Of a stretch of 64,000 nucleotides of DNA, positions 11,061 through 41,108 are shown in pieces. Source of the DNA: Candidatus Culexmicrobium cathedralense. Its GTDB lineage: Archaea > Thermoproteota > Methanomethylicia > Culexarchaeales > Culexmicrobiaceae. The stretch covers positions 129,196-193,195 of the forward strand of contig JANZKC010000003.1 of NCBI GenBank assembly GCA_025061115.1, written 5' to 3'. Made by a program: the position numbers and the translations under genes. The notes below the pieces were generated by a model that saw nothing but the letters and a program-made list of their open reading frames with translations, searched no databases and was not told where the DNA came from. Numbering within the stretch: position 1 is the first letter of the stretch; the number at the start of each line of letters is the position of its first letter.

Positions 11061-11064
11061 TCTA

Positions 11065-11841: not shown

Positions 11842-11962
11842 GCTGCTAACCTCCAAAACCTCATTTGCATGTTGAAATTTAACGTTTAGCATGCTGGAGA
11901 AGCTGATCCTAAAAACTTTTAATTTTATAATTGGTGAGTTTTAAGCAGCTGGTGAATTGGCC

Positions 11963-15032: not shown

Positions 15033-15116
15033 TTTTAAGTCACCCTTTCACATAAACGCTTACAACACAAAAGGGTATTTAAGGCTAGTCTTTAAAAGCG
15101 GTCTGGAGGACGCAAA

Positions 15117-15644: not shown

Positions 15645-15657
15645 CAGGTGACTTACC

Positions 15658-18015: not shown

Positions 18016-18024
18016 GGGTGAGGG

Positions 18025-18678: not shown

Positions 18679-18679
18679 A

Positions 18680-25440: not shown

Positions 25441-27117
25441 TTAAATGGCAAATAACGATATTGCTCTTGACAGTACTTTTTCTCCTCTGTATTCTGGTAG
25501 CAATATTGGTGATTTTCTTGTTGGCGGTATTTTCGCTTCTTTCAGCATTTCAACGTAGCGGTTAACATGTTTTAGGGATAGCTTGCCTGGCTCGACGTTT
25601 TGAACGTATTTTGCAGCTGAAATTCCGGCAATTCTACCGAAAACAGTTACTTCTAATAGTGAATTGCCCATTAATCTATTCTTTCCGTGAACTCCTCCGC
25701 AGACTTCGCCTGCTGCGAAGAATCCTAGTATTGGTTCTCCACGTCCATTTAGTACTTGGGCGTTAACGTTTATTTCAACTCCTCCATTCATGTAGTGCAG
25801 TGTTGGGAATACGAGGACTGGTTCTTTGGTTGGGTCAATGCCGAATCTGCTGAACATCCTGTAGATTGCAGCTAGCGATTTCTTTATTGTTCCTTCACCG
25901 TGAATCATTTCTATCATTGGAGTGTCTAGCCAAACTCCTCTCATTCCTGTTGGAGTTATTACTCCCTTGTTTCTGCCGTAGCATTCTCTAATAATTGCAG
26001 CTGCAACTACGTCTCTTGGCTCTAGTGGGTAGATGAACTGCTCTCCGTCAGCATTTACTAGCTGAGCACCTAATCCTCTAACTTTTTCTGTTACGAGCAG
26101 GCCTACTATCTGCTCCGGATAGGCTGCCCCAGTTGGATGATATTGCGTTGCATCAAGATCTCTTAGTCTTGCTCCAACTCTGTAAGCCATTACTACTCCA
26201 TCCATTGTTGCGCCATAGTGGTTGGTTGTTGGGAAGTTTTGAATGTGAAGTCTGCCAAATCCTCCTGTTGTTAGAATGACTGCCTTTCCTCTAGCTATGC
26301 GGTACTCTTTAGTCTCTAGATTCCATAGAACTGCTCCAGTAACTCTTCCTGTATCTGGCTCGGTTAAAAGTTCAACTGCAGGCGAGAACTCGACGACGCG
26401 AATGCCTCTATTTAAAACTTCATCCATTAGAACTCGCATTATTTCAAGTCCTGTGTAGTCCTTGCATGCATGTAGCCTCTTTCTACATGTTCCTCCACCA
26501 GAAAGCTCTATCATGTTTCCTTCTTCATCCTTGTCGAACATCACTCCAAGATCTTCAAGCCACTTTATTATGAATGGAGCATTTTCAACTAGAGTTTTTA
26601 CCAGTTCCGGCTTATTCGCATAGTGTCCTCCACCCATGACATCTATAAAGTGAAGTATTGGACTGTCATTTGGCCTGTCGGCAGCCTGTATTCCTCCTTG
26701 AGCCATCTTGGTATTTGCATCTCCAAATCTGAGTTTAGTGGCAATTAGAATTCTATCGGCTGGAATTCCACTATTATTTGCCCATAAAGCTGCTGAGGCT
26801 CCAGCTCCTCCTCCACCTATAATTAATATGTCCACATCATAGTCGATTTTACTTAAGTCTATGTTGCTTGGGTCAATTAGTGGATAAGCTTCAATTAGGT
26901 CTGCAACTTCATGAGGTACAATTAAACCTTTACTTGGACCAATTTTCAGCGGCCTCTTCCCTTCAGGCCTATAATCTGGGTGCCACTCCTTCAAGAGCTT
27001 ATCCTTCTCTTCAGGTGATATTCTTGGAAAAGCTTCTTTCAACCTTCTATCTCTAGTCTCTTCAACTTTCTCTATTGACCGTCTCATTTCCTCCGAATAT
27101 GTACTTTCGTAAGTCAT
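25441..27117 (-). CDS. succinate dehydrogenase/fumarate reductase-family flavoprotein (SdhA/FrdA/TfrA-like)
   Basis: 558 aa. Dinucleotide fold DILIIGGGGAGASAA, QYHPTG, and GEVCGGVHGKNRLMGNSLLE. ~95-aa N-terminal extension. Asn replaces the His that carries covalent FAD (DANTKMAQGGI versus RSHTVSAQGGI). Confidence 0.85.
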   Translation of the reverse strand: MTYESTYSEEMRRSIEKVEETRDRRLKEAFPRISPEEKDKLLKEWHPDYRPEGKRPLKIGPSKGLIVPHEVADLIEAYPLIDPSNIDLSKIDYDVDILIIGGGGAGASAALWANNSGIPADRILIATKLRFGDANTKMAQGGIQAADRPNDSPILHFIDVMGGGHYANKPELVKTLVENAPFIIKWLEDLGVMFDKDEEGNMIELSGGGTCRKRLHACKDYTGLEIMRVLMDEVLNRGIRVVEFSPAVELLTEPDTGRVTGAVLWNLETKEYRIARGKAVILTTGGFGRLHIQNFPTTNHYGATMDGVVMAYRVGARLRDLDATQYHPTGAAYPEQIVGLLVTEKVRGLGAQLVNADGEQFIYPLEPRDVVAAAIIRECYGRNKGVITPTGMRGVWLDTPMIEMIHGEGTIKKSLAAIYRMFSRFGIDPTKEPVLVFPTLHYMNGGVEINVNAQVLNGRGEPILGFFAAGEVCGGVHGKNRLMGNSLLEVTVFGRIAGISAAKYVQNVEPGKLSLKHVNRYVEMLKEAKIPPTRKSPILLPEYRGEKVLSRAISLFAI

Positions 27118-27128
27118 ACATTCACCTC

Positions 27129-27821
27129 CTACGTTTCGATCTCCCTCGACTCATAAAGCTTCTTCAACTCCTCAATGCTCATTTTAGTTAGCTTTTCCAG
27201 TTCCTCCTTGTACTTGCCTTGAAGTATTTCATTTATCCTCTCTTCTAAGTGCTTGGCCTTCTTGGATAAGTACTTTCCATAAAGCCTTCTAACTAGCTGG
27301 AAAACTTGGTAGTGAACTATTTCCGCTGGACATCTAATGCTACATATTCCACAAGCTATGCAGTCGAAGCTTAGTTCAGCTGCTTTAATTAAATTTCCTC
27401 TAATTAGTGATTGAATTGCATCCATAACTTCCAGGTTTTGTGGGCAAGACTTGGTACATGTATTGCAAGCAACGCACCTAGTTATTTCGGGGAATATGGA
27501 GAGCACGGTTGAAGCAGTTGGCCTCAGCTTTTCAATATCGTATTTTGGCTTTTCAGCTGGAACGAACGGTATCTGAACTAGGTACATTCCCTCTTGAACT
27601 GTTGTTTGGCATGCAAGTCCAGTATATAACTTATAATCATTCCCAATTCTATACACGGTTGCACATGCTCCGCAGAATCCGCCTCTGCATCCGCATCCTC
27701 GAATAAATTTGTAGCCTGCATACTCCATTGCCTTCATTATGGTTAGTCCTTCTGGAACTTCGTACATTTTGCCCATGATGTATATTTTAACCATCTTAAT
27801 TTTCTTCTCTTCATTACTCAT
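27129..27821 (-). CDS. SdhB/FrdB-like iron-sulfur protein
   Basis: 2Fe-2S motif CGCRGGFCGACATV..LAC, followed by CVACNTCTKSCP and CIACGICSIRCP. 4-nt overlap with the upstream gene. Confidence 0.8.
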   Translation of the reverse strand: MSNEEKKIKMVKIYIMGKMYEVPEGLTIMKAMEYAGYKFIRGCGCRGGFCGACATVYRIGNDYKLYTGLACQTTVQEGMYLVQIPFVPAEKPKYDIEKLRPTASTVLSIFPEITRCVACNTCTKSCPQNLEVMDAIQSLIRGNLIKAAELSFDCIACGICSIRCPAEIVHYQVFQLVRRLYGKYLSKKAKHLEERINEILQGKYKEELEKLTKMSIEELKKLYESREIET

Positions 27822-28672
27822 TTCACATCCTCCCCTAAAAGTGAAGAAATAACCTTTCTAACTTCAGGGTTAAGAACATTTTCAATTCCAAATGCGTAAG
27901 CCATTAATTCAGTAAAGTAGACGACTGGGATGCTTGGTCTCCTACTTGGCAGCGTTAGATTGTACTGGCATAAGGGGCATGTTGTTGCAATTACGTTTGC
28001 TCCCCACCTGTTTGCTGCTTTTCGAATTTCGAGTGCTCTATCAACTGCTATTTTCTTGTCATAGACTACGTTATATGCGCTGCAGCATTTAATTCTGTGC
28101 GGGAACTTTATTGCCTCTGCTCCAATGGCCTCTAACAGGTTTTCGAGTGTCGTTGGATTTTCAGGATTATCAATGCCTATTTCTTTTGGCCTAAGCAGTG
28201 TACAGCCATAGAATGGCGCAACTTTAAGTCCATTTAATGGCTTAACTGTAAGCTCCCTTACCTTTTCAAATCCAATAAGATCTCTGACCACTTCAATAAA
28301 GTGCAGCACCTCTATCCCGCACTCATAGTTTTCCTCTTCATCCATAAACTCATTTATAGTCTTAAGCTTTTCACTATCAATTTTAAGTAGCTCATTTACT
28401 CGCTTGAGTACGTTATAGCACATCGAGCATAAAGTGACAAGCCTATTATCATTTAATTTTCTGCCCATTTCTTGAGCTCTAACTAAATCTCTTACAGCTC
28501 CAATGTGGTGAATTACGCTATCAATAGCTAAGTTTAGCACTGCTCCGCAGCAATTCCATCGGTCAAGTTCAATTAGATCTATGCCCATCTTCCTTGCAAC
28601 TGCAAGTGCGCTTTCCTCATAATTTAATGCAGTGGTCTTTAGCGTACAGCCTGGAAAGTACATGAGCTTCAC
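27818..28672 (-). CDS. HdrB / SdhE-like protein with two CCG-type cysteine-rich domains
   Basis: 284 aa. YFPGC..WNCCGA..LCSMC and FYGC..KCCSAY..TCPLC follow the pattern of CCG domains found in HdrB, TfrB and type-E SdhE. Confidence 0.8.
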   Translation of the reverse strand: MKLMYFPGCTLKTTALNYEESALAVARKMGIDLIELDRWNCCGAVLNLAIDSVIHHIGAVRDLVRAQEMGRKLNDNRLVTLCSMCYNVLKRVNELLKIDSEKLKTINEFMDEEENYECGIEVLHFIEVVRDLIGFEKVRELTVKPLNGLKVAPFYGCTLLRPKEIGIDNPENPTTLENLLEAIGAEAIKFPHRIKCCSAYNVVYDKKIAVDRALEIRKAANRWGANVIATTCPLCQYNLTLPSRRPSIPVVYFTELMAYAFGIENVLNPEVRKVISSLLGEDVK

Positions 28673-28676
28673 ACTC

Positions 28677-29048
28677 TCACCCCATAAGCTTTCTCGATGC
28701 TGCTACAAGTGCAATTTGCGGCATTTCACCGACTTCCGGCACTTTTCTAAGGTTAACCACGTATAATCCCTTCCTCATCTTTATGTTTCTTAGAGCGTTG
28801 ATCACTCTTGCGGTGTCTATTCCTCTGGGGCATCTGACTGTGCAGTTGTAGCATGAAGCGCAGATCCAAAGAGTGTTCGAGTCTAGTACATCCTCCATAT
28901 TTAGCTGAATCATTCTAACTACTTGATTTGGCGGCACATCCATGATGCTTACTAGTGGGCAAGTTCCGCTGCAAATTCCACATTGGAAGCATAAATACAC
29001 GTTTTCCCCAGTTAATTCGTAAACTTTTTGAGCCAAACCTTTAAACAT
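28677..29048 (-). CDS. HdrC-like 2x[4Fe-4S] ferredoxin-domain protein
   Basis: CFQCGICSGTCP and CASCYNCTVRCP motifs. ATG 29048 lies 7 nt after GGAGGTG. Confidence 0.75.
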   Translation of the reverse strand: MFKGLAQKVYELTGENVYLCFQCGICSGTCPLVSIMDVPPNQVVRMIQLNMEDVLDSNTLWICASCYNCTVRCPRGIDTARVINALRNIKMRKGLYVVNLRKVPEVGEMPQIALVAASRKLMG

Positions 29049-29061
29049 GCCCACACACCTC

Positions 29062-31455
29062 CTAAATTTTTATTTTTGCTCTTTCCTCTGGCTTTAACGG
29101 TCCAAGTCTTTCAACCATCTTTACTAGGTCATTAAGGTTCTTCGCCAGCCTCTCCGCAGTATCGACTGCAATTGTGTCGAACCTTAGTCTCCTAGCATCG
29201 ATTCTGCATCTTCGCAGTTTAGCTCTAGTTTTACGCATCAAGTCATTTATGGCATCTAGAACTTTGGGGTGATAAGGGGAGCCGCCTGGCAGGCAGTCTC
29301 CAATGAAAATTGCGTCTGCGCCGAACTTGAATGCGCTTAAAATTATTTTTGGAGTTAACCTGCTTGAGCTTGGAATTCTTATGATTCTAACTTTATCAGT
29401 GTAGTTTATTCTGCTTGTTCCAGCTAGATCTGCCGCTCTGTAGGTGCATGAATCGTCGAAGAATGCTAGGACTCTTATTTCTCCTTCCTTCTTGCTTGCA
29501 AGTATGGCCTTTATTTCATCAATAATCTGCTCTTCAGTGTAGTGCTTTAAGTCTATAGCGTTCTTGGGGCAGTATGGTATGCAGCTACCGCACCCACCGC
29601 ATAGTGCCTCGTTAATTTTTGCAGTGCTATTCTCAATAGTTATTGCTCCTAGTGGACACTTGTCAATGCACTTTCCACAGCCATCGCAAAGCTCCTCCTT
29701 AACAAAGGCCTTTATTGGTTCAACTATTATTCTTCTTTGGCTGATTAGCCTTAATGCTCTTCCAGCAGCTGCGCTCGCTTGCGCTACGGTGTCGCATATG
29801 TCCTTTGGACCCTGAGCGCAGCCACAAATGAAAATGCCCTCTCTTAGGGTATCTACTGGCCTGTACTTTGGATGAGCTTCAAGGAAGAATCCGCCAGGTC
29901 CAGTTGTTATTTTAAGTATTTTTGCTAGTTCTTCGGTTCCTTTGCTTGGGACTAGTCCAACTGAAAGCACTACAAGATCGAATTCCATTTCAATCATTCT
30001 GCCTGTAAGTGTGTCCTCAGCTCTAACTATCAGATTTTTAGTTATTGGATCCTCAATTATTTCAGCAACTTTACCTCTAATGAACTGAATGCCCATTTCC
30101 TGTGCTCTCATATAATATTCTTCAAATCCCTTTCCAAATGCCCTAATATCAATGTAGAAGATGTACACGTCTCGCGTTATGTCCTGCCTTTTAAGTATCA
30201 TCGCCTGCTTGATCGCGTACATACAGCATATTCTCGAGCAGTTTGGTCTTCCAATTGTTTCATCTCTTGATCCTATGCATTGGATGAAAGCTATTCGCTT
30301 AGCAATTTTTCCGTCTGAAAGTCGGATTACTTTGCCTGCAGTTGGTCCTGTCGGCATGACTAATCTTTCGAGTTGGGGTGCAATGATGACATTAGCGTAC
30401 TTGCCATACCCATATTGCTCAAGCAGAGTTGCGTCAAATGGGTCATAACCTGTAGCCACAATGATCACATCAACAGTTACGTTTATCGTTTTAGGTTTAT
30501 CTTCGAAGTTTATTGCATTCTGTGGACATACCTTTTCGCAAAGGCGGCATACACCCTTAGTCAGGTAGAGGCAGTGAGCTTCATCAATTAAGTACTTATA
30601 TGGCACAGCCATTTCATGGGGAACATAAATTGCCTTTCTCATTCTTAAGCCATAGTTGAACTCGTCGGGAACTTTAGTTGGACATTTTTCCGCGCATTTG
30701 CCGCATGCCACGCACTTGGTCATGTCAACGTATCTTGGCTTAACTTTAATTGTAACTTTAAAGTTTCCAACGTGCCCCTCAACCCTTTCAACTTCACTGT
30801 AGGTCAATAGGGTTATGTTAGGGTGATTGTAGACTGCAGCCATTTTAGGCGATAAGATGCAGAGGGAGCAGTCGTCTGTGGGGAATGTGTAGCTTAGCTG
30901 CGCCATTCTACCTCCAATTGTCGGCTGTCTTTCAACCAAGTATACTTTGCAGCCTGAATCAGCCAGGTCTAAAGCGGCTTGAATGCCTGCAATTCCTCCT
31001 CCTATTACTAAAACTCTCTTACCAATCTCGATTTCTTTAACTTGAAGAGCTTGATTCAGCCTGGCCTTAGCGACGGCTGCTGCCACTTGATCTTTAGCTT
31101 TCAAAGTGGCTCCTTCAGGATTGTCGGAGTGAACCCATGAGCACTGCTCTCTTATGTTGGCCATTTCAAGAAAGTATGGATTTAACCCAGCTTCTTCAAT
31201 AAGTTTTTTAAATGTAGCTTCATGGAATTTTGGGGAGCATGCTGCAATGACGATTCTATTCAGATGGTACTTCTTAATGTCTTCTAGAACCATTTTCTGG
31301 GCAGTTTCCGAGCACATGTGCTCATGATCCTTGGCCAAGACAACGCCAGGTAAATTTCCAGCGAAATTTCTTACTTCTTCGACGTTGACGACGTTAGAAA
31401 TGTTTCCGCCGCAATGACAAATGTAAACGCCTATCCGTACGCCGTCGCTTGTCAT
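29062..31455 (-). CDS. hdrA: heterodisulfide reductase subunit A-like flavoprotein fused to an MvhD-like domain
   Basis: About 797 aa. N-terminal YICHCGGNIS, FAD motif VLVIGGGIAGIQAALDLA, ferredoxin motifs CVACGKCAEKCP, CRLCEKVCP, CDGCGKCIDKCP and CGGCGSCIPYCP, and a C-terminal 140-aa MvhD-like domain. ATG 31455 is preceded by GGTGAT. Confidence 0.85.
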   Translation of the reverse strand: MTSDGVRIGVYICHCGGNISNVVNVEEVRNFAGNLPGVVLAKDHEHMCSETAQKMVLEDIKKYHLNRIVIAACSPKFHEATFKKLIEEAGLNPYFLEMANIREQCSWVHSDNPEGATLKAKDQVAAAVAKARLNQALQVKEIEIGKRVLVIGGGIAGIQAALDLADSGCKVYLVERQPTIGGRMAQLSYTFPTDDCSLCILSPKMAAVYNHPNITLLTYSEVERVEGHVGNFKVTIKVKPRYVDMTKCVACGKCAEKCPTKVPDEFNYGLRMRKAIYVPHEMAVPYKYLIDEAHCLYLTKGVCRLCEKVCPQNAINFEDKPKTINVTVDVIIVATGYDPFDATLLEQYGYGKYANVIIAPQLERLVMPTGPTAGKVIRLSDGKIAKRIAFIQCIGSRDETIGRPNCSRICCMYAIKQAMILKRQDITRDVYIFYIDIRAFGKGFEEYYMRAQEMGIQFIRGKVAEIIEDPITKNLIVRAEDTLTGRMIEMEFDLVVLSVGLVPSKGTEELAKILKITTGPGGFFLEAHPKYRPVDTLREGIFICGCAQGPKDICDTVAQASAAAGRALRLISQRRIIVEPIKAFVKEELCDGCGKCIDKCPLGAITIENSTAKINEALCGGCGSCIPYCPKNAIDLKHYTEEQIIDEIKAILASKKEGEIRVLAFFDDSCTYRAADLAGTSRINYTDKVRIIRIPSSSRLTPKIILSAFKFGADAIFIGDCLPGGSPYHPKVLDAINDLMRKTRAKLRRCRIDARRLRFDTIAVDTAERLAKNLNDLVKMVERLGPLKPEERAKIKI

Positions 31456-31464
31456 TAGTATCAC

Positions 31465-31592
31465 CGCTCATCATTGGTTGGATAAAAAGCATATTTATCG
31501 CTTTCTTTAAAATTGTAGGCTTAACATGAGTATTTTCCGCGTAAATTATTTAAGATTATTATACATGATTAGCTCGCTGGAGATGGTTTGAA
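31465..31592. promoter_or_regulatory. divergent promoter region between the hdrA operon and the gcvH-hydrogenase operon
   Basis: 128-bp AT-rich spacer with TATA-like boxes on both sides (ATAAATAT on the minus strand near 31480-31492, AAATTATTTAAG near 31543-31554). No coding potential. Confidence 0.5.
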
Positions 31593-31988
31593 ATGAGTGA
31601 GGAGTATGAAGTTCGTGAAGGACTATATTATACTGAAGACCACACTTGGGCTGAAGTTTTGCCTGACGGAACCGTAAAGGTCGGCATAACGGATTATGCT
31701 CAGAAAATGTTGAAGACAGTTAGGCGAGTTAGACTTGAAGAAGTTGGCGCAGAGGTTGAGCAGTTCGAGCCCTTTGGAATTATCGAGTCAACTAAAGCTA
31801 CTAGCGACTTAATTTCCCCTGTTAGCGGAACGATTAAGAAGGTAAATGAAAGCGTCCTCCGCCAACCATCAATAGTTAACACTGACCCCTATGGCGCTGG
31901 TTGGCTAGTGATAATTGAGCCTTCAAATCTAGAGGAAGAACTTGAAAGCTTGCTGGACGCTGAAGGATATAAGGAGTACATGGTTTAG
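31593..31988 (+). CDS. GcvH-family lipoyl carrier protein (LbpA-like context)
   Basis: 131 aa. Lipoyl-lysine context IIESTKATSDLISPVSG (K68, nt 31794-31796). No gcvP, gcvT or lpd in the window. Confidence 0.85.
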   Translation: MSEEYEVREGLYYTEDHTWAEVLPDGTVKVGITDYAQKMLKTVRRVRLEEVGAEVEQFEPFGIIESTKATSDLISPVSGTIKKVNESVLRQPSIVNTDPYGAGWLVIIEPSNLEEELESLLDAEGYKEYMV

Positions 31989-31999
31989 CAGCGAATTAA

Positions 32000-32479
32000 A
32001 TGCGAGGCAATCATATGACTAAACTTGAGCTTCAAAAAGTTCTTTTATATGATCCAAATAAGTGCTCGGGATGCCTCTACTGCATGATAGTATGCTCATA
32101 TTCTCATTATGGAGAAATTTCACTTGATAAAGCTCATCTGGAGGTCTTGAGAGACCCCTTTAATCCAAATATGTTTATAAATGCTCACTGTGCTCACTGT
32201 CAATACCCATATTGTGAAGCCGCCTGCCCGCTTGATCCTAAAGCCATAGTTAAAGATGAGGATACTGGCTTCGTTTTGATAAATTCAGCTCGATGTATTG
32301 GGTGCAGAAGCTGCAATTATGCATGCCCAATATCAATCCCACATTTCGACGAGATATTCAAAGTAAGTGTCAAGTGCGATGCATGTAAAGGAGAATTTTT
32401 ATGTGCCAAGTACTGCAGCACGGGCGCTCTGAGGGTTGTTACGAGGAAAGAGGCGATGGAGGCTCTTCAACATGAGTGA
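32000..32479 (+). CDS. HycB-like multi-[4Fe-4S] electron-transfer protein
   Basis: 159 aa with four cluster motifs: CSGCLYCMIVC, CAHCQYPYCEAACP, CIGCRSCNYACP and CDACKGEFLCAKYC. Alternative start at ATG 32015. Confidence 0.75.
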   Translation: MRGNHMTKLELQKVLLYDPNKCSGCLYCMIVCSYSHYGEISLDKAHLEVLRDPFNPNMFINAHCAHCQYPYCEAACPLDPKAIVKDEDTGFVLINSARCIGCRSCNYACPISIPHFDEIFKVSVKCDACKGEFLCAKYCSTGALRVVTRKEAMEALQHE

Positions 32480-32750
32480 GAAGGAGCTTAAACTCTATCC
32501 TTTAAGAAAGAGGATTATCGGCTTGCCGCAGCCATTTAAGCCTCCAACAAGTGGGATATTGAAGTATGGTCACGTGCCCAGGCTATCAGGATTTTTGCAG
32601 AGAACTAGATCTAAGCTTGGACTTTCAAAAGCTCCACCTACAGCCTATCAAGTTAAAGAAGCAGTTGAGGAAGTTCAAAATATAATTAGAACTTTAAAGC
32701 TGGACATAAAGTTTGCTTGGGATTGGAAGAAAAAGAGATTTCAGTATTAG
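32472..32750 (+). CDS. small basic protein of unknown function
   Basis: 92 aa counted from ATG 32472, which overlaps the upstream stop by 8 nt. No motif recognised. Confidence 0.45.
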   Translation: MSEKELKLYPLRKRIIGLPQPFKPPTSGILKYGHVPRLSGFLQRTRSKLGLSKAPPTAYQVKEAVEEVQNIIRTLKLDIKFAWDWKKKRFQY

Positions 32751-32763
32751 GAGATGAAACTAT

Positions 32764-33633
32764 ATGGCTAAGTACTCGCTTTTCCTTGGTTGCTACATTC
32801 CTTCAATGCAGCCATTTGCTGAGGCTGCTCTCCGTAAAATATCTCCTGATCTAAACATTGAATTGCTAGATATTGTTGGAGCCACGTGCTGTCCCGTACC
32901 CGAAATAGTTAGGCTAGTTGATGATGAAGCTTGGATTACAATTGCAGCTAGAAATTTAGCTCTAGCCGATTCAATGAGTCATGATATCCTCGTATTATGC
33001 AATGGGTGCTGGGAAACCCTTTATGAAGCGAGGGAAAAGTTGCTGCATGATATCAAGCTTAGAAATAAAGTGAATTCGAACTTGAAGCTCCTAGGTAAGA
33101 AGTTTACTGGAAAAGCTGAAGTTAAGCATTATACTCAAGTGCTGGTTGAAGATGTAGGTTTGGATGCACTGAGAAGGAACATTAAAGTGGATTTAAAGAA
33201 CTTGAAAGTTGCTGTTCATCCAGGATGCAAGTTGTATAAGAGTGATGGTGAGAAGCTAGCTAAGTACTTAAGAGATATTGTTGAAGCTTTGGGCGTCCAA
33301 GTAGTTGAATATGGAATTGAAAGAGTTTGCTGCGGATACCCCCTAATGCTTGCATCGGTTGATAAGGCAATTCATGAGAGAACGAAGTGGAAGTTAGATG
33401 CAATTAAGGATGCTAATGCTGATATGATCGTTGTTGCATGTCCAGCATGTTATGATCAATTAGAGAAGGCTCAACTTGCTCTCCGCGATGAAGGGCTAGA
33501 GTACAATTTGCCAGTTCTTCACCTAACCGAGCTTATAGCCTTAGCTTTTGGCTATAAAGCTGGAGAGATTGGTTTAGACTTGCATGGAATAAGCTGTATG
33601 CCAGTAATTGAGAAACTGGAGGGAGTTAAGTGA
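32764..33633 (+). CDS. HdrB-like protein with two CCG-type cysteine-rich domains
   Basis: 289 aa. LGC..TCCPVP..LCNGC and HPGC..VCCGYP..ACPACYDQL. Confidence 0.8.
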   Translation: MAKYSLFLGCYIPSMQPFAEAALRKISPDLNIELLDIVGATCCPVPEIVRLVDDEAWITIAARNLALADSMSHDILVLCNGCWETLYEAREKLLHDIKLRNKVNSNLKLLGKKFTGKAEVKHYTQVLVEDVGLDALRRNIKVDLKNLKVAVHPGCKLYKSDGEKLAKYLRDIVEALGVQVVEYGIERVCCGYPLMLASVDKAIHERTKWKLDAIKDANADMIVVACPACYDQLEKAQLALRDEGLEYNLPVLHLTELIALAFGYKAGEIGLDLHGISCMPVIEKLEGVK

Positions 33634-34088
33634 GATTTAAGCAGAAAATGATGGTTTTCTCCCCATGGTTATTTCACCTACATGCTGGGGGCTGCAATGG
33701 CTGCGATATTGAGCTGGTTGCAGCATTAACTCCCAGATTTGATGTTGAGCGTTTTGGAATAGTGTTGGTCGGTTCGCCAAAATTTGCTGACATTCTAGTT
33801 GTAACGGGTCCTGTTCCAAAGCAAATCGCACCTTTTCTGAAGAGGGTTTATAATCAAGTTCCAGATCCAAAGGTAGTTGTTGCCGTTGGCTCATGCGCTT
33901 GCTCTGGAGGAGTATTTAATGATGAAGAAGGCGAGGAAACATATGCTATTGTGGGAGGAGTAGATAAGATAATTCCGGTTGACGTTTATGTGCCGGGGTG
34001 CCCTCCAAAGCCTGAAGCGATTATTGATGGTGTAGTTAAGGCGATTAAGATTTTAGCTGAGAAGGCTGGTGGTAGGGGTGAACATTAA
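33630..34088 (+). CDS. group-4 [NiFe] hydrogenase small subunit (NuoB/HycG/EchC-like)
   Basis: 152 aa. Proximal-cluster ligand contexts GGCNGCDIE, GSCACSGG and VPGCPPKPE. Confidence 0.85.
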   Translation: MRFKQKMMVFSPWLFHLHAGGCNGCDIELVAALTPRFDVERFGIVLVGSPKFADILVVTGPVPKQIAPFLKRVYNQVPDPKVVVAVGSCACSGGVFNDEEGEETYAIVGGVDKIIPVDVYVPGCPPKPEAIIDGVVKAIKILAEKAGGRGEH

Positions 34089-34371
34089 GTATAAGTACTT
34101 GCCATTCATTGCATCTCTAATTGCATCAACTACAGGCATCATATTTGCTTTCATCGTAGAAAGCCCCATATTGCTCTTATTCCTAATCGAGCTGGCATCA
34201 ACTTCAGCGTTCTACTTACTATTCCTAGTTATTTTGTCTTCACTTCAACCTGAAAAGGTCGACATGGAAACTACTTTTGCATGTGGCTTGGCTAAACCTC
34301 CATACCTAGATCCAAACGAACTCTATCAGTTCAAGTTTCCAATAGTTGAGGAGGAAGGGGAAAATGAGTAG
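34069..34371 (+). CDS. small integral membrane subunit (unknown)
   Basis: 100 aa with two or three TM helices. Embedded between hydrogenase subunit genes with overlaps on both sides. Confidence 0.5.
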   Translation: MVGVNIKYKYLPFIASLIASTTGIIFAFIVESPILLLFLIELASTSAFYLLFLVILSSLQPEKVDMETTFACGLAKPPYLDPNELYQFKFPIVEEEGENE

Positions 34372-35839
34372 CGAACTTATTTTAACATTAGCTATTCCAT
34401 TAATTGCATCAATAACTGTCGCTTTACTTGAATCAAATGTAGCCCACGCTATTTCATTAACAGCTCTCGGGCTAACCCTAATAATAAATACTCACTTACT
34501 CACGATTTCGCTGGCAGGTACAACTCAAGTTTGTGGCAGTCTAATTGGTGATCCTATTGGCCTGCTGATGAGTGAATTAATCCTAATCGTAGGTTTCATA
34601 TCTGTAAGCTACTCCTTCCAATACTTCCCCGTAGGTCAAGATAGGAGAAGCCGCTTTTTTATGGCTTTAATGCTCGCCTTCGCTTCAACCCTTATTGGAT
34701 TAGCACTGTCTTCAAACATTCTAGGAATGCTTCTTTTCCTAGAAGCCTCAACAGTTCTCAGCGTCGTCCTAATAATTTATGGCGAGAGAGGTCGTAAAGC
34801 AATGCTTGCCGCTTCAATATACTTGGTAATGTCCATTGTAGAGTCATTATTGATAGTTGGTGGAATCTACTATTTAGCTAAGGCTTCAAACCTCCAGTTG
34901 TCAGCAATCAATATTTTCAATATTCAAAAATTGCACCCAGTAGCAGAGCCTGAAGCTTCAATTGCAGCTTTCCTTATATTGCTAGGTTTTGGTACTAAGG
35001 CTGGCATCATACCTTTAGCGTTAATATGGCTTCCAATAACGCATGCAGAGGCTCCATCACCAGTTAGCGCTAATCTCTCAGGTGTGATGATTGAGGCTGC
35101 TTTCATAGCTACACTCAGATGCGCGTATGCATTACTTCCTCATGCTTCAGATGTTGTTATTACGTTGCTCGCTGGCCTCGGAATGGCTAGCATCTGGGCT
35201 GGAATTTTTGGCATGATAATAGATAGAGACTTAAAGCGGGTTCTAGCTTTTAGTAGCATTTTAAGCATGGGCAGTGTATGCATGGTAACTGGACTTAGCT
35301 TGGCATCAAGTGGAGAAAACTTAGCTGCGGGACTTCAAGGCGTATTGTATTATTTAACTGCACATTCAGTTGGAAAGGCACTGCTCTTCTTAGGGAGCGG
35401 ATCGTACTTAAAGAAAATCGGAGAACGAAACTGGACTAAAATGGCTGGCGCAACCAAAATTTTGCCAATAACTTCAGCTCTTTGGATTGTTGGAGCAATT
35501 AGCATAGCCGGACTGTTTCCTCCTGCGGCAGGATACTACGCTAAACACTTAATGATAAACTGTATAGATAACCTCGAAGTAGCGGTATGCGGCATACCTG
35601 CATTCTACTATAAGTTGTCCCTATATGCTGGAGGGATAGCGATATTTCTCATATTATTGGGGTTTACAGTATTTTCTCTTAGAGGAGCTGGAGAGCCAAA
35701 TGATGTTTCAAAGTTAATGTTGATATCAAAAATTGCTCTTGCAGCAATCTGCATAATTTTAGGATTAGTTTCAACTAGCCTTGAACATGAGCTGTTCGCA
35801 ACAGCTGTAAATGCAATCTTAAGATTAGGAGGTGGATGA
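34364..35839 (+). CDS. NuoL/HycC/EchA-like antiporter-type membrane subunit
   Basis: About 490-aa polytopic protein with the layout of the proton-conducting NuoL/M/N family. ATG 34364 follows GAGGAGGAAGGGG. Confidence 0.8.
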   Translation: MSSELILTLAIPLIASITVALLESNVAHAISLTALGLTLIINTHLLTISLAGTTQVCGSLIGDPIGLLMSELILIVGFISVSYSFQYFPVGQDRRSRFFMALMLAFASTLIGLALSSNILGMLLFLEASTVLSVVLIIYGERGRKAMLAASIYLVMSIVESLLIVGGIYYLAKASNLQLSAINIFNIQKLHPVAEPEASIAAFLILLGFGTKAGIIPLALIWLPITHAEAPSPVSANLSGVMIEAAFIATLRCAYALLPHASDVVITLLAGLGMASIWAGIFGMIIDRDLKRVLAFSSILSMGSVCMVTGLSLASSGENLAAGLQGVLYYLTAHSVGKALLFLGSGSYLKKIGERNWTKMAGATKILPITSALWIVGAISIAGLFPPAAGYYAKHLMINCIDNLEVAVCGIPAFYYKLSLYAGGIAIFLILLGFTVFSLRGAGEPNDVSKLMLISKIALAAICIILGLVSTSLEHELFATAVNAILRLGGG

Positions 35840-37484: not shown

Positions 37485-37486
37485 CT

Positions 37487-38479
37487 ATGCTTGTCGCACT
37501 TGCAGTATTAATTCCAATCATAAGCTTCATGATCGGCGTGTTATTGAATTTTGAGATTAGAAAGGTATTTGCAAGAGCTCAATATAGGCTGGGGCCGCTT
37601 TTAACAATGTACAGCGATTTAAGGGGACTTTTAGGTTTTACGAGAATTTTGCAGCCGCTTTATGATATTTTAAAGCTTTCATATAAGGAGACTCTGATAC
37701 CTAAAAGTGCAAATAAAATGCTCTTCACGTCATCTCCATGGATAAGCCTAATACTTGCCGTCGCAGCCTCATACTTCATATCCTATGGAGGATTAACGAT
37801 TTTAGCTAACATCGAACTTAGCTTAATCTTCCTAACTTACCTCATCGTAGGAGTATCTCTATTCTGGATTATAGGTGCATCTGCAAGCTCATCACCCTGG
37901 GGCGCTATAGGTGTTAGGCGGGAAGCTGAACTTCTATTCTCAATTGAAGTTGCCCTGTTGTCGTCCATTTTTTCAGCCGCATTATTGGCAAACACTTTAT
38001 CAGTTCAAGGCATAGTGAATGCGCAGTTGAAACTGTATCCATACATATTGTTGAACCCATTAGCTGCAATAACCTTCATGATAGCCCTTTTAGGCAAGTT
38101 GCAATTAAAGCCATTCGACATTCCAGATGCTGAAGTTGAAATAGTGGCCGGTCCATTTACGGAGTATTCAGGAAAGCTTTTAGCATTGCTGCTTGCCTCC
38201 AAGTACTTTTTAACGGCAATCATGACTGGATTATTCGTCAATATCTTCCTGGGCGGAGGGCAAATTCTACCTCCCACAAATTCATTAAACTTGGCAGTTA
38301 ATTTCATCGTCTTCCTAATACTATGCATTGCAGTGGCATTTATAGCCTCGTTAATCCACGCAGTAGCGCCGCGATTTAGAGTTGATCAGGGATTTAAGTG
38401 GGTCATAACGCGCCTATGGCCGCTAGCCTTCGCATCGCTTGCCTTATCAATAGTCTTTAAAAGTATGGGGGTGTTATAG
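37487..38479 (+). CDS. NuoH/HycD/EchB-like membrane subunit
   Basis: 330-aa polytopic protein. Position and size match HycD/NuoH-type subunits. Confidence 0.8.
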   Translation: MLVALAVLIPIISFMIGVLLNFEIRKVFARAQYRLGPLLTMYSDLRGLLGFTRILQPLYDILKLSYKETLIPKSANKMLFTSSPWISLILAVAASYFISYGGLTILANIELSLIFLTYLIVGVSLFWIIGASASSSPWGAIGVRREAELLFSIEVALLSSIFSAALLANTLSVQGIVNAQLKLYPYILLNPLAAITFMIALLGKLQLKPFDIPDAEVEIVAGPFTEYSGKLLALLLASKYFLTAIMTGLFVNIFLGGGQILPPTNSLNLAVNFIVFLILCIAVAFIASLIHAVAPRFRVDQGFKWVITRLWPLAFASLALSIVFKSMGVL

Positions 38480-41105: not shown

Positions 41106-41108
41106 ATT

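What the first reader, a model, noticed from the sequence alone, without database searches (positions are those of the whole stretch)
25441..31455. Hybrid hdrA(mvhD)-hdrC-hdrB/sdhE-sdhB-sdhA operon: a heterodisulfide-reductase module fused genetically to a fumarate-reductase-like module
Seen in sequence:
- Five minus-strand genes are packed with 4- to 13-nt gaps or a 4-nt overlap.
- They are a long HdrA (FAD motif, four ferredoxin motifs, MvhD-like tail), an HdrC-like 2x[4Fe-4S] protein, a protein with two CCG-type domains, an SdhB/FrdB-like protein (2Fe-2S plus two 4Fe-4S motifs) and an SdhA/FrdA-family flavoprotein.
- No membrane anchor gene (SdhC/D or SdhF) is present.

Established knowledge:
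- HdrABC is the flavin-based electron-bifurcating heterodisulfide reductase.
- SdhA-SdhB-SdhE(CCG) is the core of type-E (Sulfolobus-type) succinate dehydrogenase.
- Methanogen thiol:fumarate reductase TfrAB joins a flavoprotein to a CCG/Fe-S subunit.

Inference: the five products may form one soluble complex that couples a thiol/disulfide couple and/or ferredoxin to fumarate (or another enoate) reduction through HdrA. Because the operon is divergent from the gcvH-hydrogenase operon, the thiol could be the dihydrolipoyl arm of the GcvH-like protein rather than CoM/CoB.
Basis: partly seen in the sequence, partly recalled or inferred. Interest (0 to 1): 0.7.

Follow-up and report, generated by a model that had tools for sequence, protein, structure and literature searches.

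The report
Hdr-linked soluble fumarate reductase operon
Five tightly packed archaeal genes encode a soluble fumarate-reductase-type flavoprotein and its iron-sulfur partner joined to a heterodisulfide-reductase (HdrABC-MvhD) module. This combination is conserved in hundreds of anaerobic species and has already been described in the literature as a probable electron-bifurcating fumarate reductase, but no enzyme assay of it was found.

Summary
Window 25441-31455 (minus strand) holds hdrA-mvhD (fused), hdrC, hdrB, a 2Fe-2S/2x[4Fe-4S] protein and an SdhA/FrdA-fold flavoprotein. They are separated by 11-13 nt or overlap by 4 nt, and none has a membrane segment.

- **Conservation.** The flavoprotein belongs to a very conserved family (55-93% identity across Archaea and Bacteria). 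About 600 stretches in a one-genome-per-species collection carry its motifs.
- **Synteny.** The Fe-S gene lies next to it in 49/51 well-covered loci, hdrB in 39/51 and hdrA in 41/51.
- **Neighbours.** Common neighbours are Mvh hydrogenase or FlxABC (NADH) donor modules, 2-oxoacid:ferredoxin oxidoreductase, succinyl-CoA synthetase, fumarase and malic enzyme.
- **Active site.** All fumarate-binding and catalytic residues are invariant. The covalent-FAD histidine is an invariant Asn, which favours reduction.

Best reading: a soluble Hdr-coupled, probably electron-bifurcating, fumarate reductase.

This is not new. The same locus was described in Culexarchaeia (Kohtz 2022). The same functional idea was proposed for Pseudoclostridium thermosuccinogenes (Koendjbiharie 2019/2020) and Endoriftia (Rubin-Blum 2019). 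No biochemical proof was found.

The GcvH link is specific to Culexarchaeia. It is strengthened by lipS2-lplA-lipS1 genes next to the hydrogenase, but it stays speculative.

The parts
29062..31455 (-). hdrA fused to mvhD (HdrA2-type), 797 aa. It carries the bifurcating-type FAD domain, ferredoxin domains and a C-terminal MvhD/FlpD [2Fe-2S] adaptor domain.
   Evidence: NCBIfam HdrA2 scores 999.7 bits (cut-off 1100); 781 bits to 5odc_A over residues 6-651, and the tail (residues 657-792) matches MvhD 5odc_D.
28677..29048 (-). hdrC-like 2x[4Fe-4S] protein, 123 aa.
   Evidence: CoB_CoM_SS_C 84 bits, cut-off 160. All 8 Cys ligands are invariant in 48/48 relatives.
27818..28663 (-). hdrB/sdhE-like protein with two CCG domains, 281 aa.
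   Evidence: CCG, two stretches. HdrB model 141.5 bits and MFR SdhE model 141.7 bits, both below their cut-offs. The 10 CCG-motif cysteines are conserved (nine in 54/54, one in 52/54).
27129..27821 (-). Iron-sulfur subunit of the reductase, 230 aa: an N-terminal [2Fe-2S] (Cys45/50/53/71) plus two CxxCxxCxxxCP [4Fe-4S] motifs. Published annotation of this locus type lists a 'CdhA' at the place this gene occupies.
   Evidence: The cdhA hit is only 41 bits, against a cut-off of 781, and covers only the ferredoxin insert; colinear with E. coli FrdB at 23% identity. The 12 cluster-ligand Cys are invariant in 76/76 relatives. The gene is adjacent to the flavoprotein in 49/51 loci.
25441..27117 (-). 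Fumarate-reductase-type flavoprotein, 558 aa. It has a non-covalent-FAD signature, a family-specific N-terminal extension (residues 1-95) and a short conserved C-terminal tail in place of the SdhA C-terminal domain.
   Evidence: AF2 model pLDDT 87.5. Best Foldseek hit is E. coli FrdA, 1kf6_A.
31456..31592 (.). 137-nt A/T-rich divergent intergenic region between hdrA and gcvH. It probably holds both promoters.
   Evidence: Sequence read. A/T-rich TATA-like boxes lie roughly 35-45 nt upstream of each start codon. This is inference only.
31593..31988 (+). gcvH-type lipoyl carrier protein, 131 aa. It is the first gene of the divergent operon, and this neighbourhood is specific to the lineage.
   Evidence: GCV_H, and the gcvH equivalog scores 123.6 bits against a cut-off of 115.85. 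The lipoyl-lysine motif ESTKA is visible in the translation. The gene is adjacent to the reductase operon in L003, L083 and L085.
32000..33633 (+). An Fe-S protein (4Fe-4S dicluster, 154-159 aa), a small ORF (92-104 aa) and a second HdrB-like CCG protein (289 aa). These are the HdrBC-like input/output module of the membrane hydrogenase.
   Evidence: The second HdrB scores 241.9 bits on the CoB_CoM_SS_B model.
33630..39052 (+). Group-4 membrane [NiFe] hydrogenase ('Ehe' of Kohtz 2022): NuoB-like small subunit, a 100-aa membrane protein, an Mrp/NuoL-like antiporter subunit, a fused NuoC-NuoD-type large subunit, a NuoH-like subunit and a NuoI-like subunit.
   Evidence: The large subunit has the Ni-binding motifs RICGICNTPH and DPCFSCTDR. 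Hydrophobic segments are found only in the three membrane subunits.
39367..41960 (+). lipS2, a lipoate-protein ligase (LplA catalytic domain) and lipS1. This is a lipoyl-assembly set directly downstream of the hydrogenase genes.
   Evidence: Radical_SAM, LplA-B_cat, Radical_SAM. LipS2 363.7 bits (cut-off 270) and LipS1 242.6 bits (cut-off 230). A Lip_prot_lig_C gene and a radical SAM gene lie in the same place in L085.

Best explanation
The five genes encode one cytoplasmic enzyme system, a heterodisulfide-reductase-coupled fumarate reductase.

**Catalytic part.** The 558-aa flavoprotein (non-covalent FAD, FrdA/SdhA fold) reduces fumarate to succinate. Its partner supplies the electrons through one [2Fe-2S] and two [4Fe-4S] clusters.

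**Electron wiring (inferred).** That Fe-S subunit is wired through the CCG protein (HdrB/SdhE-like) and HdrC to the flavin of HdrA. This is the same cofactor series as in methanogen thiol:fumarate reductase TfrAB, but split over four genes.

**Bifurcation (inferred).** HdrA receives electron pairs through its fused MvhD domain. The donor is not encoded in this operon. In relatives it is an Mvh [NiFe] hydrogenase or an FlxABC NADH dehydrogenase. HdrA splits each pair: one electron goes 'downhill' via HdrC/HdrB/FeS to fumarate (E0' about +30 mV), and the other goes 'uphill' to ferredoxin. Fumarate therefore takes the place that CoM-S-S-CoB has in methanogens. The reduced ferredoxin can feed 2-oxoacid:ferredoxin oxidoreductases or energy-converting hydrogenases.

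**Shown:** gene content, domains, conserved ligands and catalytic residues, conserved synteny and context.

**Inferred:** complex formation, direction of the reaction, bifurcation and the electron route.
For: **1. The flavoprotein looks like a fumarate reductase.**
- FAD_binding_2 scores 1.4e-78.
- The profile hits SdhA, FrdA and flavocytochrome c3 structures.
- The AF2 model (pLDDT 87.5) is closest to E. coli FrdA 1kf6_A.
- The motifs HPTG (His327), TEKxR (Thr343, Glu344, Arg347), HYxNGG (His441) and NRLMGNSL (Arg481) are invariant in 64 sequences. They align with the E. coli FrdA/SdhA catalytic residues.

**2. The reaction direction is probably reductive.**
- The covalent-FAD histidine of SdhA/FrdA is an invariant Asn135.
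- Loss of the covalent link in FrdA abolishes succinate oxidation but not fumarate reduction. This is established knowledge, cited from memory.

**3. Linkage to the Hdr genes is conserved.**
- About 600 stretches in one-genome-per-species contigs carry the family motifs, in Archaea and Bacteria.
- Among the 51 loci with at least 8 kb upstream: FeS 49, HdrB 39, HdrC 38, HdrA 41.

**4. Donor modules sit in the same operons.**
- MvhG/MvhA/HycI occur in 12/51 loci and FlxA/B/C-like genes in 8-12/51.
- One example operon is kor-hdrA-mvhD-mvhG-mvhA-hycI-hdrC-hdrB-FeS-FP.

**5. The metabolic context is the reductive TCA branch.**
- Neighbours include 2-oxoacid:ferredoxin oxidoreductase subunits (13-14/51), succinyl-CoA synthetase, class I fumarase, malic enzyme and methylmalonyl-CoA carboxyltransferase.

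**6. All cluster ligands are conserved.**
- HdrB: the 10 CCG-motif Cys (nine in 54/54, one in 52/54).
- FeS: 12 Cys, 76/76.
- HdrC: 8 Cys, 48/48.

**7. HdrA is a full-length homologue of the structurally characterised bifurcating HdrA.**

**8. Literature.**
- A succinate-producing Clostridium-type bacterium has a 'succinate operon' of fumarase + Flx-Hdr + a two-gene fumarate reductase. The authors assume it couples fumarate reduction to ferredoxin reduction (PMC7282089, citing a 2019 preprint).
- The same idea is proposed for Endoriftia (PMC6315080, PMC11636981, PMC13147460).
Against: - No enzyme assay or purified complex was found for any member of this family in the searchable literature.
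- The window's operon has no donor module, so the electron donor here is unknown.
- The HdrB active-site cysteines are strictly conserved. This may mean that real thiol/disulfide chemistry, and not only electron relay, is part of the mechanism.
- In 10-12 of the 51 well-covered loci no hdr gene lies within 10 kb of FeS-FP.
- I could not show by sequence that the P. thermosuccinogenes or Endoriftia reductases belong to this exact family.
- The reduction direction rests on the Asn-for-His substitution and on context, not on measurement.
Confidence: 0.55

Rival explanations
1. A thiol-mediated two-step system. FP-FeS-HdrC-HdrB act as a split thiol:fumarate reductase that oxidises a dithiol carrier. 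In Culexarchaeia that carrier would be the dihydrolipoyl arm of the neighbouring GcvH. The resulting disulfide is re-reduced elsewhere: by the HdrB'C'-Ehe membrane hydrogenase with ion translocation, or by HdrA-dependent bifurcation. This would amount to a 'fumarate respiration' that runs through a protein-bound disulfide.
For: - The 10 CCG-motif cysteines of HdrB are conserved (nine in 54/54, one in 52/54).
- The cofactor series equals that of TfrB (hits of the TfrB model to FeS, HdrC and HdrB).
- gcvH with a second HdrB-like gene and the hydrogenase stays next to the operon in four Culexarchaeia loci, in both divergent and co-directional arrangements.
- lipS2-lplA-lipS1 follow the hydrogenase genes.
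- Another GcvH relative sits beside a Fer4/CCG protein, a lipoate ligase and an Lpd-like gene.
- Kohtz et al. report that Culexarchaeia lack full CoM/CoB biosynthesis (PMC9723716).
Against: - GcvH is absent from the operon neighbourhood outside Culexarchaeia (3/80 loci, two of which look like ordinary gcvT-H-P operons).
- The GcvH passes the canonical gcvH equivalog model, so it may simply be the glycine-cleavage H protein.
- CCG proteins serve as plain electron-transfer subunits in several dehydrogenases (SdhE, GlpC, GlcF, LutA; established knowledge).
- Only one HdrB is encoded in the operon.
Confidence: 0.2
2. The reverse direction: a succinate dehydrogenase. Succinate is oxidised, and its high-potential electrons are confurcated with reduced ferredoxin at HdrA (or passed to the Ehe hydrogenase) to make H2 or a reduced thiol. 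Kohtz et al. suggested this for thermophilic Culexarchaeia.
For: [quoted passage not shown]
- The reductase operon lies beside a membrane [NiFe] hydrogenase.
- TCA-branch neighbours are compatible with either direction.
Against: - The covalent-FAD histidine needed for efficient succinate oxidation is an invariant Asn.
- The donor modules in relatives (Mvh, Flx) deliver low-potential electrons, which fits reduction.
- The operon type is reported in a succinate-producing fermenter (PMC7282089).
- Succinate at about +30 mV is a very poor partner for making H2 or NADH, even with ferredoxin confurcation (thermodynamic reasoning).
Confidence: 0.1
3. The flavoprotein acts on a different substrate, such as L-aspartate (NadB-like), another enoate or a 2-substituted succinate. 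The Hdr module would then serve that reaction.
For: - No NCBIfam equivalog threshold is reached: TfrA 318/718, sdhA_frdA 291/567, nadB 274/453.
- Identity to SdhA, FrdA and NadB is equal at 32-34%.
- The family has unique insertions and termini.
Against: - The complete fumarate/succinate residue set is invariant.
- NadB's Glu121 is Gly207 here.
- NadB structures rank below FrdA and SdhA in the fold search.
- The neighbours are TCA-branch genes, and no NAD-biosynthesis gene was among those examined.
Confidence: 0.07
4. An ordinary type-E (Sulfolobus-type SdhABEF) succinate:quinone oxidoreductase core that merely lies next to unrelated hdrA/hdrC genes.
For: - FP + Fe-S + CCG protein resembles SdhA-SdhB-SdhE.
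- The CCG protein scores as well on the MFR SdhE model as on the HdrB model.
- The third cluster motif has four cysteines, as in type-E SdhB.
Against: - There is no SdhF and no membrane segment.
- The covalent-FAD His is missing.
- The Fe-S protein fails the SdhB models.
- hdrC and hdrA co-occur with FeS-FP across phyla.
- The genes are packed at 4-13 nt.
Confidence: 0.03

Closest known systems
Flx-Hdr-linked 'novel fumarate reductase' of Pseudoclostridium thermosuccinogenes (Koendjbiharie and van Kranenburg 2019 preprint; PMC7282089) and the tfrAB/flxABCD-hdrABC/korABCD cluster of Endoriftia and Thioflavicoccus (PMC6315080, PMC11636981)
   Same: A two-gene soluble fumarate reductase sits in one operon with hdrABC and an MvhD/FlxD-type adaptor, next to TCA-branch genes. 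The same hypothesis applies: fumarate is the high-potential acceptor of flavin-based bifurcation. Firmicute loci found here (L057, L081, L082) have exactly the order hdrB-hdrC-hdrA-flxD-(three Flx-like genes)-FeS-FP.
   Different: The window has no FlxABC or Mvh donor genes, and its HdrA is fused to MvhD. It is divergent from a gcvH-HdrBC-like-hydrogenase operon. Sequence identity with the published examples could not be checked directly.
Culexarchaeia 'Ehe' locus (Kohtz et al. 2022, PMC9723716)
   Same: It has the same gene set in the same lineage: an Ehe group-4 hydrogenase with HdrBC and an antiporter subunit, co-located with 'SdhA', 'CdhA', HdrA2B2C2 and GcvH. GcvH homologues at 87-89% identity come from Guaymas Basin archaeal MAGs GB-1867-035 and GB-1845-036; a source names the flavoprotein of the latter as Candidatus Culexmicrobium.
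   Different: The gene at the place of the published 'CdhA' is, by my analysis, the Fe-S subunit of the reductase (cdhA model 41 bits against 781). The suggested CO oxidation therefore has no support. The paper's main text does not mention the adjacent lipS2-lplA-lipS1 genes. It favours succinate oxidation, whereas the sequence favours fumarate reduction.
MvhAGD-HdrABC of methanogens (Wagner et al. 2017; PDB 5odc)
   Same: HdrA matches over its full length, with an MvhD domain, HdrC with 8 Cys and HdrB with 10 CCG cysteines. It is presumably the same bifurcating core.
   Different: The terminal acceptor is proposed to be fumarate, reached through an added Fe-S/flavoprotein pair, and not CoM-S-S-CoB. 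The HMM scores for HdrB and HdrC are well below the equivalog cut-offs.
Thiol:fumarate reductase TfrAB of Methanothermobacter
   Same: Both have a soluble flavoprotein with non-covalent FAD, and the cofactor series 2Fe-2S, 2x[4Fe-4S] and two CCG domains. The TfrA model is the best-scoring NCBIfam hit (318 bits), and the TfrB model touches FeS, HdrC and HdrB in order.
   Different: The TfrB functions are split over three genes, with an extra 2x[4Fe-4S] unit. The TfrA score is far below its cut-off (718). HdrA-MvhD is added.
AprAB-QmoABC of sulfate reducers (analogy, from established knowledge)
   Same: An SdhA-superfamily flavoprotein with a ferredoxin-like partner is fed by HdrA/HdrC-like proteins.
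   Different: The substrate is different (APS), and the flavoprotein is only remotely related (PAPS/APS reductase hit at 46 bits). Qmo is membrane-anchored.
sHdr-LbpA sulfur-oxidation system (Dahl laboratory; from memory)
   Same: An Hdr-like CCG protein is encoded with a GcvH-like lipoate-binding protein and a dedicated ligase plus LipS1/LipS2-type radical SAM enzymes.
   Different: Here the partner is a membrane hydrogenase, not hdrC1B1A-hyp-hdrC2B2. The GcvH passes the canonical gcvH model. No sulfur-transfer genes were seen.

Membership tests
Hdr-linked soluble fumarate reductase (Flx/Mvh-Hdr-FR cluster type) | SdhA/FrdA-superfamily flavoprotein with the complete fumarate catalytic residue set | tested here: met
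   His327, Thr343, Glu344, Arg347, His441 and Arg481 are invariant and align with the FrdA/SdhA residues. The model has an FrdA fold.
Hdr-linked soluble fumarate reductase (Flx/Mvh-Hdr-FR cluster type) | Adjacent 2Fe-2S + 2x[4Fe-4S] subunit gene | tested here: met
   The gene is adjacent in 49/51 relatives.
Hdr-linked soluble fumarate reductase (Flx/Mvh-Hdr-FR cluster type) | hdrA, hdrB, hdrC and an MvhD/FlxD adaptor in the same operon | tested here: met
   gene spacing is -4 to 13 nt.
Hdr-linked soluble fumarate reductase (Flx/Mvh-Hdr-FR cluster type) | Electron-donor module (FlxABC or MvhAG) in the operon | tested here: not met
   No such gene lies between 24632 and 31592. About 10 of 80 relatives share the fused HdrA-MvhD form (HdrA ORFs of 740-850 aa); their donor genes were not tallied.
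Hdr-linked soluble fumarate reductase (Flx/Mvh-Hdr-FR cluster type) | Fumarate-dependent ferredoxin reduction by the complex | not testable with these tools
   This needs enzyme assays. None was found in the literature searched.
Methanogen-type HdrABC heterodisulfide reductase | Full-length HdrA with MvhD partner; HdrC with 8 Cys; HdrB with two CCG motifs | tested here: met
Methanogen-type HdrABC heterodisulfide reductase | Scores above the NCBIfam equivalog cut-offs | tested here: not met
   HdrA2 999.7 against 1100; HdrB 141.5 against 345; HdrC 83.9 against 160.
Methanogen-type HdrABC heterodisulfide reductase | CoM-S-S-CoB as substrate | not testable with these tools
   Kohtz et al. report incomplete CoM/CoB biosynthesis in the lineage (PMC9723716).
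Type-E succinate:quinone oxidoreductase (SdhABEF) | Covalently flavinylated SdhA (His in the R-S-H-T motif) | tested here: not met
   The position is an invariant Asn135. That covalent FAD defines this family is my recollection, not a tested fact.
Type-E succinate:quinone oxidoreductase (SdhABEF) | Canonical SdhB and an SdhF subunit | tested here: not met
   The dhsB model scores 25 bits against 88. There is no SdhB hit in the PDB and no further small gene in the operon.
Type-E succinate:quinone oxidoreductase (SdhABEF) | CCG-domain SdhE subunit | tested here: inconclusive
   The MFR SdhE model scores 141.7 bits (cut-off 500), equal to the HdrB model at 141.5.
Thiol:fumarate reductase TfrAB | TfrA and TfrB equivalog matches; TfrB as a single 2Fe-2S/4Fe-4S/CCG polypeptide | tested here: not met
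   TfrA scores 318 bits against 718. The TfrB model matches three separate proteins at 31-35 bits.
L-aspartate oxidase (NadB) | nadB equivalog score; Glu121; NAD-biosynthesis gene context | tested here: not met
   The nadB model scores 273.6 bits against 452.75. Glu121 aligns with the invariant Gly207. No nadA or nadC gene was among the neighbour genes examined; the neighbours that were identified are TCA-branch genes.
sHdr-LbpA type lipoate-dependent Hdr system (for the divergent operon) | GcvH-like carrier, LipS1/LipS2 and a ligase encoded beside an Hdr-like CCG protein | tested here: met
sHdr-LbpA type lipoate-dependent Hdr system (for the divergent operon) | hdrC1-hdrB1-hdrA-hyp-hdrC2-hdrB2 gene set | tested here: not met
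   The gene order is gcvH, Fe-S, small ORF, hdrB', then hydrogenase genes.

The most novel reading that the evidence does not exclude
In Culexarchaeia the lipoylated GcvH-type protein may be a protein-bound redox shuttle, a stand-in for the methanogen heterodisulfide, between two Hdr-type modules. The membrane Ehe hydrogenase with its own HdrB'C' would reduce lipoyl-GcvH with H2, or oxidise it to H2, while moving ions. The soluble HdrABC-fumarate reductase would oxidise dihydrolipoyl-GcvH with fumarate. Together they would form a quinone-free, cytochrome-free H2:fumarate respiration, or a route that disposes of glycine-cleavage electrons without an L protein.
Probability: 0.15. Interest if true: 0.8.

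Novelty: already known. Interest (0 to 1): 0.45.

Why it matters
HdrABC homologues are common in anaerobes that make no coenzyme M or B, and what they reduce is a long-standing open question. This cluster type offers a concrete and testable answer: fumarate, reached through an added flavoprotein/Fe-S pair.

If the complex bifurcates, the very exergonic fumarate reduction would pay for making reduced ferredoxin from H2 or NADH. That would change the energy budgets assumed for succinate and propionate fermentations, for the reductive TCA branch, and for many uncultured Archaea, including Asgard, Bathyarchaeia and Thermoplasmata lineages.

The family is present in organisms named as species rather than MAGs: Sporomusa rhizae DSM 16652, Clostridium estertheticum, Marinisporobacter balticus and Acetoanaerobium pronyense. 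The biochemistry should therefore be within reach.

For the window itself, the finding is a further example of something already described.

Tried and rejected
1. **Direct sequence link to the published P. thermosuccinogenes reductase.** A second homologue search with a Clostridium-type member listed only closer relatives. The link rests on the matching published gene order only.
2. **The Hydrogenobacter five-subunit NADH-fumarate reductase paper (PMC2580677)** is not held, so its subunits could not be compared.
3. **Full phylogeny against TfrA, AprA and others.** Reference sequences other than E. coli SdhA, FrdA and NadB could not be fetched. I used HMM scores, a 10-sequence alignment and a fold search instead.
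4. **The downstream Asp/Glu/hydantoin-racemase gene (24632-25300) as a maleate isomerase feeding fumarate.**
   - Its best solved relative is an uncharacterised Pyrococcus 'hydantoin racemase', 2eq5.
   - It is separated by 140 nt that include a T-rich tract.
   - It appears beside the operon only in the window's own contigs and one close relative and in none of the 80 surveyed loci.
   - I treat it as a neighbour, not a part.
5. **The 'CdhA'/CO-oxidation reading of the Fe-S gene** is rejected. The hit is only to the ferredoxin insert of CdhA (41 bits against 781).
6. **gcvH near the reductase in two bacterial loci (L016, L041).** The flanking ORF sizes fit an ordinary gcvT-gcvH-gcvPA-gcvPB operon about 7 kb away on the other strand. 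I count this as coincidence.
7. **Glycine-cleavage T/P/L genes** were not found among the ORFs scanned; a few ORFs of 120 aa or more at both ends of the window were not scanned.

Full report
**1. What is in the sequence**

The minus strand of 25441-31464 carries five ORFs. Gene calls on the source contigs put the starts at 31455 (hdrA, 797 aa), 29048 (hdrC, 123 aa) and 28663 (hdrB, 281 aa).

Pfam and NCBIfam show the following.
- HdrA has a C-terminal FlpD/MvhD domain. Its best model is HdrA2, at 999.7 bits.
- There is a small 2x[4Fe-4S] HdrC-like protein.
- There is a protein with two CCG domains.
- A 230-aa protein has a Fer2_4 2Fe-2S domain and a 4Fe-4S dicluster domain.
- A 558-aa FAD_binding_2 flavoprotein lacks the Succ_DH_flav_C domain.

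HdrA matches the solved methanogen HdrA over its whole length, and its tail matches MvhD. None of the five has a membrane-type hydrophobic segment.

'SdhB-like' needs softening. The Fe-S protein is colinear with E. coli FrdB at only 23% identity. It fails the SdhB models and finds no SdhB among solved structures by sequence.

**2. The flavoprotein family**

The flavoprotein is one of a remarkably conserved family.
- Homologues at 65-93% identity come from Culexarchaeia/Methanomethylicia, Njord- and other Asgard archaea, Thermoplasmata, Thermococci and Thermoprotei.
These also occur in many Bacteria: WOR-3, Acetothermia, Thermotogae, Bacillota including Sporomusa rhizae DSM 16652, Chloroflexota, Spirochaetota and Aminicenantes.
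- Records named as species rather than MAGs (Clostridium estertheticum, Marinisporobacter balticus, Acetoanaerobium pronyense), and records named to genus (Ilyobacter sp., Cetobacterium sp.), also carry it.
- Identity within the family is 58-70% even between domains, but only 32-34% to E. coli SdhA, FrdA and NadB.
- No NCBIfam equivalog cut-off is reached: TfrA 318/718, sdhA_frdA 291/567, nadB 274/453.

The AlphaFold2 model (pLDDT 87.5) is closest to E. coli FrdA, then to SdhA and flavocytochrome c3. NadB ranks 46th.

The catalytic set is invariant in 64 sequences and aligns with the E. coli residues:
- His327 in HPTG
- Thr343-Glu344-x-x-Arg347
- His441 in HYxNGG
- Arg481 in NRLMGNSL

Two positions are informative.
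- The histidine that carries covalent FAD in SdhA/FrdA is an invariant Asn135.
- NadB's Glu121 aligns with the invariant Gly207.

The family also has a structured N-terminal extension of about 95 residues (pLDDT around 90) and a short conserved tail (R..P..LP.YR) in place of the SdhA C-terminal domain. These may be docking elements; that is inference.

**3. Synteny**

I called ORFs in the 80 fetched loci and labelled them with the window's proteins. Among the 51 loci with at least 8 kb upstream of the flavoprotein:

| Gene present in locus | Loci (of 51) |
|---|---|
| Fe-S gene | 49 |
| hdrB | 39 |
| hdrC | 38 |
| hdrA | 41 |
| mvhA | 12 |
| Flx-like genes | 8-12 |
| 2-oxoacid:ferredoxin oxidoreductase subunits | 13-14 |

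The commonest order is hdrC-hdrB-FeS-FP. Clustering the unlabelled neighbours and scanning representatives gave three kinds of result.
- **H2 donor module.** MvhG, MvhA and the HycI protease lie between mvhD and hdrC.
- **NADH donor module.** FlxA-, FlxB- and FlxC-like genes are present. In Sporomusa, Clostridium and Heimdall loci the order is hdrB-hdrC-hdrA-flxD-flx-flx-flx-FeS-FP.
- **Metabolic neighbours.** These include 2-oxoacid:ferredoxin oxidoreductase alpha, beta, gamma and delta, succinyl-CoA synthetase, class I fumarase, malic enzyme, methylmalonyl-CoA carboxyltransferase and an Asp-Al_Ex transporter.

One archaeal contig has the whole series in a single direction: kor-hdrA-mvhD-mvhG-mvhA-hycI-hdrC-hdrB-FeS-FP.

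All cluster ligands are conserved in the reductase-linked proteins: the 10 CCG-motif Cys of HdrB (nine in 54/54, one in 52/54), 12 Cys of the Fe-S subunit in 76/76, and 8 Cys of HdrC in 48/48.

**4. Mechanism**

The shown facts fit a soluble fumarate reductase that is built onto an HdrABC-MvhD core.

The cofactor series is FAD, then 2Fe-2S and 2x[4Fe-4S], then 2x[4Fe-4S], then two CCG clusters. This is the series of methanogen TfrAB. The TfrB model touches the Fe-S protein, HdrC and HdrB in that order.

My best reading, at 0.55 confidence, runs as follows.
- HdrA takes electron pairs through MvhD from a donor module: Mvh or Flx in relatives, unknown here.
- It bifurcates them, sending one electron to ferredoxin and the other through HdrC/HdrB and the Fe-S subunit to the flavoprotein and fumarate.

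Three points favour reduction over oxidation. The Asn-for-His substitution removes the covalent FAD link, which FrdA needs for succinate oxidation but not for fumarate reduction (established knowledge, from memory). The donor modules are low-potential. A succinate-producing bacterium is reported to have this kind of operon (PMC7282089).

Whether HdrB only relays electrons or handles a thiol is open. CCG proteins do act as plain relays in SdhE, GlpC and GlcF. The strict conservation of its cysteines allows either reading.

**5. The neighbourhood in this lineage**

The divergent plus-strand operon contains, in order:
- gcvH, which passes the canonical model and has a lipoyl-lysine motif
- a 4Fe-4S protein
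- a small ORF
- a second HdrB-like protein
- a group-4 [NiFe] hydrogenase with intact Ni motifs and three membrane subunits

Directly after it come lipS2, a lipoate-protein ligase and lipS1. Both LipS models score above their cut-offs.

In relatives at 72-85% flavoprotein identity, the same two modules are adjacent in either orientation: divergent in L083, co-directional in L003 and L085, the latter again followed by a ligase domain and a radical SAM gene. The linkage is therefore kept within Culexarchaeia.

Outside that lineage, GcvH is not part of the reductase neighbourhood. The closest non-Culexarchaeia GcvH relatives sit in other contexts:
- a GlcD-like + Fer4/CCG + GcvH + LplA + Lpd-like cluster
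- a plain gcvT-gcvH pair

The lipoyl-shuttle idea is thus lineage-specific and speculative. I give it 0.15-0.2.

**6. Comparison with the literature**

- Kohtz et al. 2022 (PMC9723716) described this locus type in Culexarchaeia: Ehe hydrogenase + HdrBC + antiporter subunit with 'SdhA', 'CdhA', HdrA2B2C2 and GcvH. They already suggested that GcvH might carry the disulfide.
- Their 'CdhA' appears to be the Fe-S subunit described here. The cdhA model matches only its ferredoxin part, at 41 bits against a cut-off of 781, so CO oxidation is not supported.
- Their main text does not mention the lipoylation genes.
- The functional hypothesis, fumarate reduction coupled through Flx-Hdr to ferredoxin reduction, was proposed for P. 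thermosuccinogenes (PMC7282089, citing a 2019 preprint) and for tubeworm symbionts (PMC6315080, PMC11636981, PMC13147460).
- I found no enzymological proof.

**7. Verdict**

Both are already in print.

What this analysis adds:
- the breadth of the family
- the invariant catalytic and ligand residues
- the modular donor pattern
- the correction of 'CdhA'
- the lipS2-lplA-lipS1 genes beside the hydrogenase

Interest is moderate. This is a good and widely distributed target for settling what Hdr does outside methanogens, but it is not a discovery.

Noticed in passing
window 39367-41960 (+): lipS2, a lipoate-protein ligase (LplA catalytic domain) and lipS1 lie directly downstream of the membrane hydrogenase genes and about 7.4 kb from gcvH. 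A ligase C-terminal domain gene and a radical SAM gene occupy the same place in L085. The main text of the paper that described the locus does not mention them.
   Followed up: partly
L090 5286-10782 and L091 (same genes): The closest non-Culexarchaeia GcvH relative (63% identity, seen on many contigs) lies in a cluster of a GlcD-like FAD oxidase, a Fer4+CCG (HdrD/GlcF-like) protein, GcvH, a full-length lipoate ligase and a dihydrolipoamide-dehydrogenase-like protein. This is a second, different pairing of a GcvH with a CCG protein.
   Followed up: no
window 27129-27821 (-): The best NCBIfam hit of the Fe-S subunit is cdhA, but only to CdhA's ferredoxin insert (residues 393-460 of the model; 41 bits against a cut-off of 781). 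This probably explains the 'CdhA' annotation, and the CO-oxidation suggestion, in the published description of the locus.
   Followed up: yes
L005 1-2708 (-) and 8545-11004 (+): In a WOR-3 bacterium, FeS-FP have no hdr genes within reach. Instead, group-4-hydrogenase/complex-I-like genes (NuoCD, NuoB, NuoH and a Fe-S protein) lie on the opposite strand upstream.
   Followed up: no
L070 17262-20816 (+): A second, more SdhA-like flavoprotein (34% identity to the window protein, with a full C-terminal domain) is followed by HdrC- and HdrB-like ORFs. This looks like a TfrAB/type-E-like set in the same locus as the Hdr-linked reductase.
   Followed up: no
window 24632-25300 (-); L083 7985-9797: An Asp/Glu/hydantoin-racemase-family gene follows the flavoprotein gene after 140 nt that contain a T-rich tract. 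In a relative, an MFS transporter gene is inserted between them. The closest solved protein is an uncharacterised Pyrococcus 'hydantoin racemase' (2eq5, 240 bits).
   Followed up: partly
window 17215-20307 (+); L083 14120-17196; L085 1935-4952: A DUF6754 gene plus three ORFs without any Pfam match stay close to the reductase operon in three Culexarchaeia contigs, even though the surroundings are rearranged.
   Followed up: no
window 13251-17073: A fused carboxyltransferase (CT_C_D + CT_A_B, 593 aa, minus strand) faces a biotin-carrier-like ORF and an oxaloacetate-decarboxylase-alpha/pyruvate-carboxylase-B-like gene (HMGL-like + PYC_OADA). An HMG-CoA reductase gene lies at 11957-13231.
   Followed up: no
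window 10095-11892 (-) and 54241-55927 (-): Electron-transfer flavoprotein alpha and beta genes are present. Elsewhere in the window there are enoyl-CoA hydratase and 3-hydroxyacyl-CoA dehydrogenase genes. This fits the beta-oxidation capacity reported for the lineage.
   Followed up: no
window 46482-49090 (-): A HerA-like (DUF87) and NurA-like gene pair.
   Followed up: no
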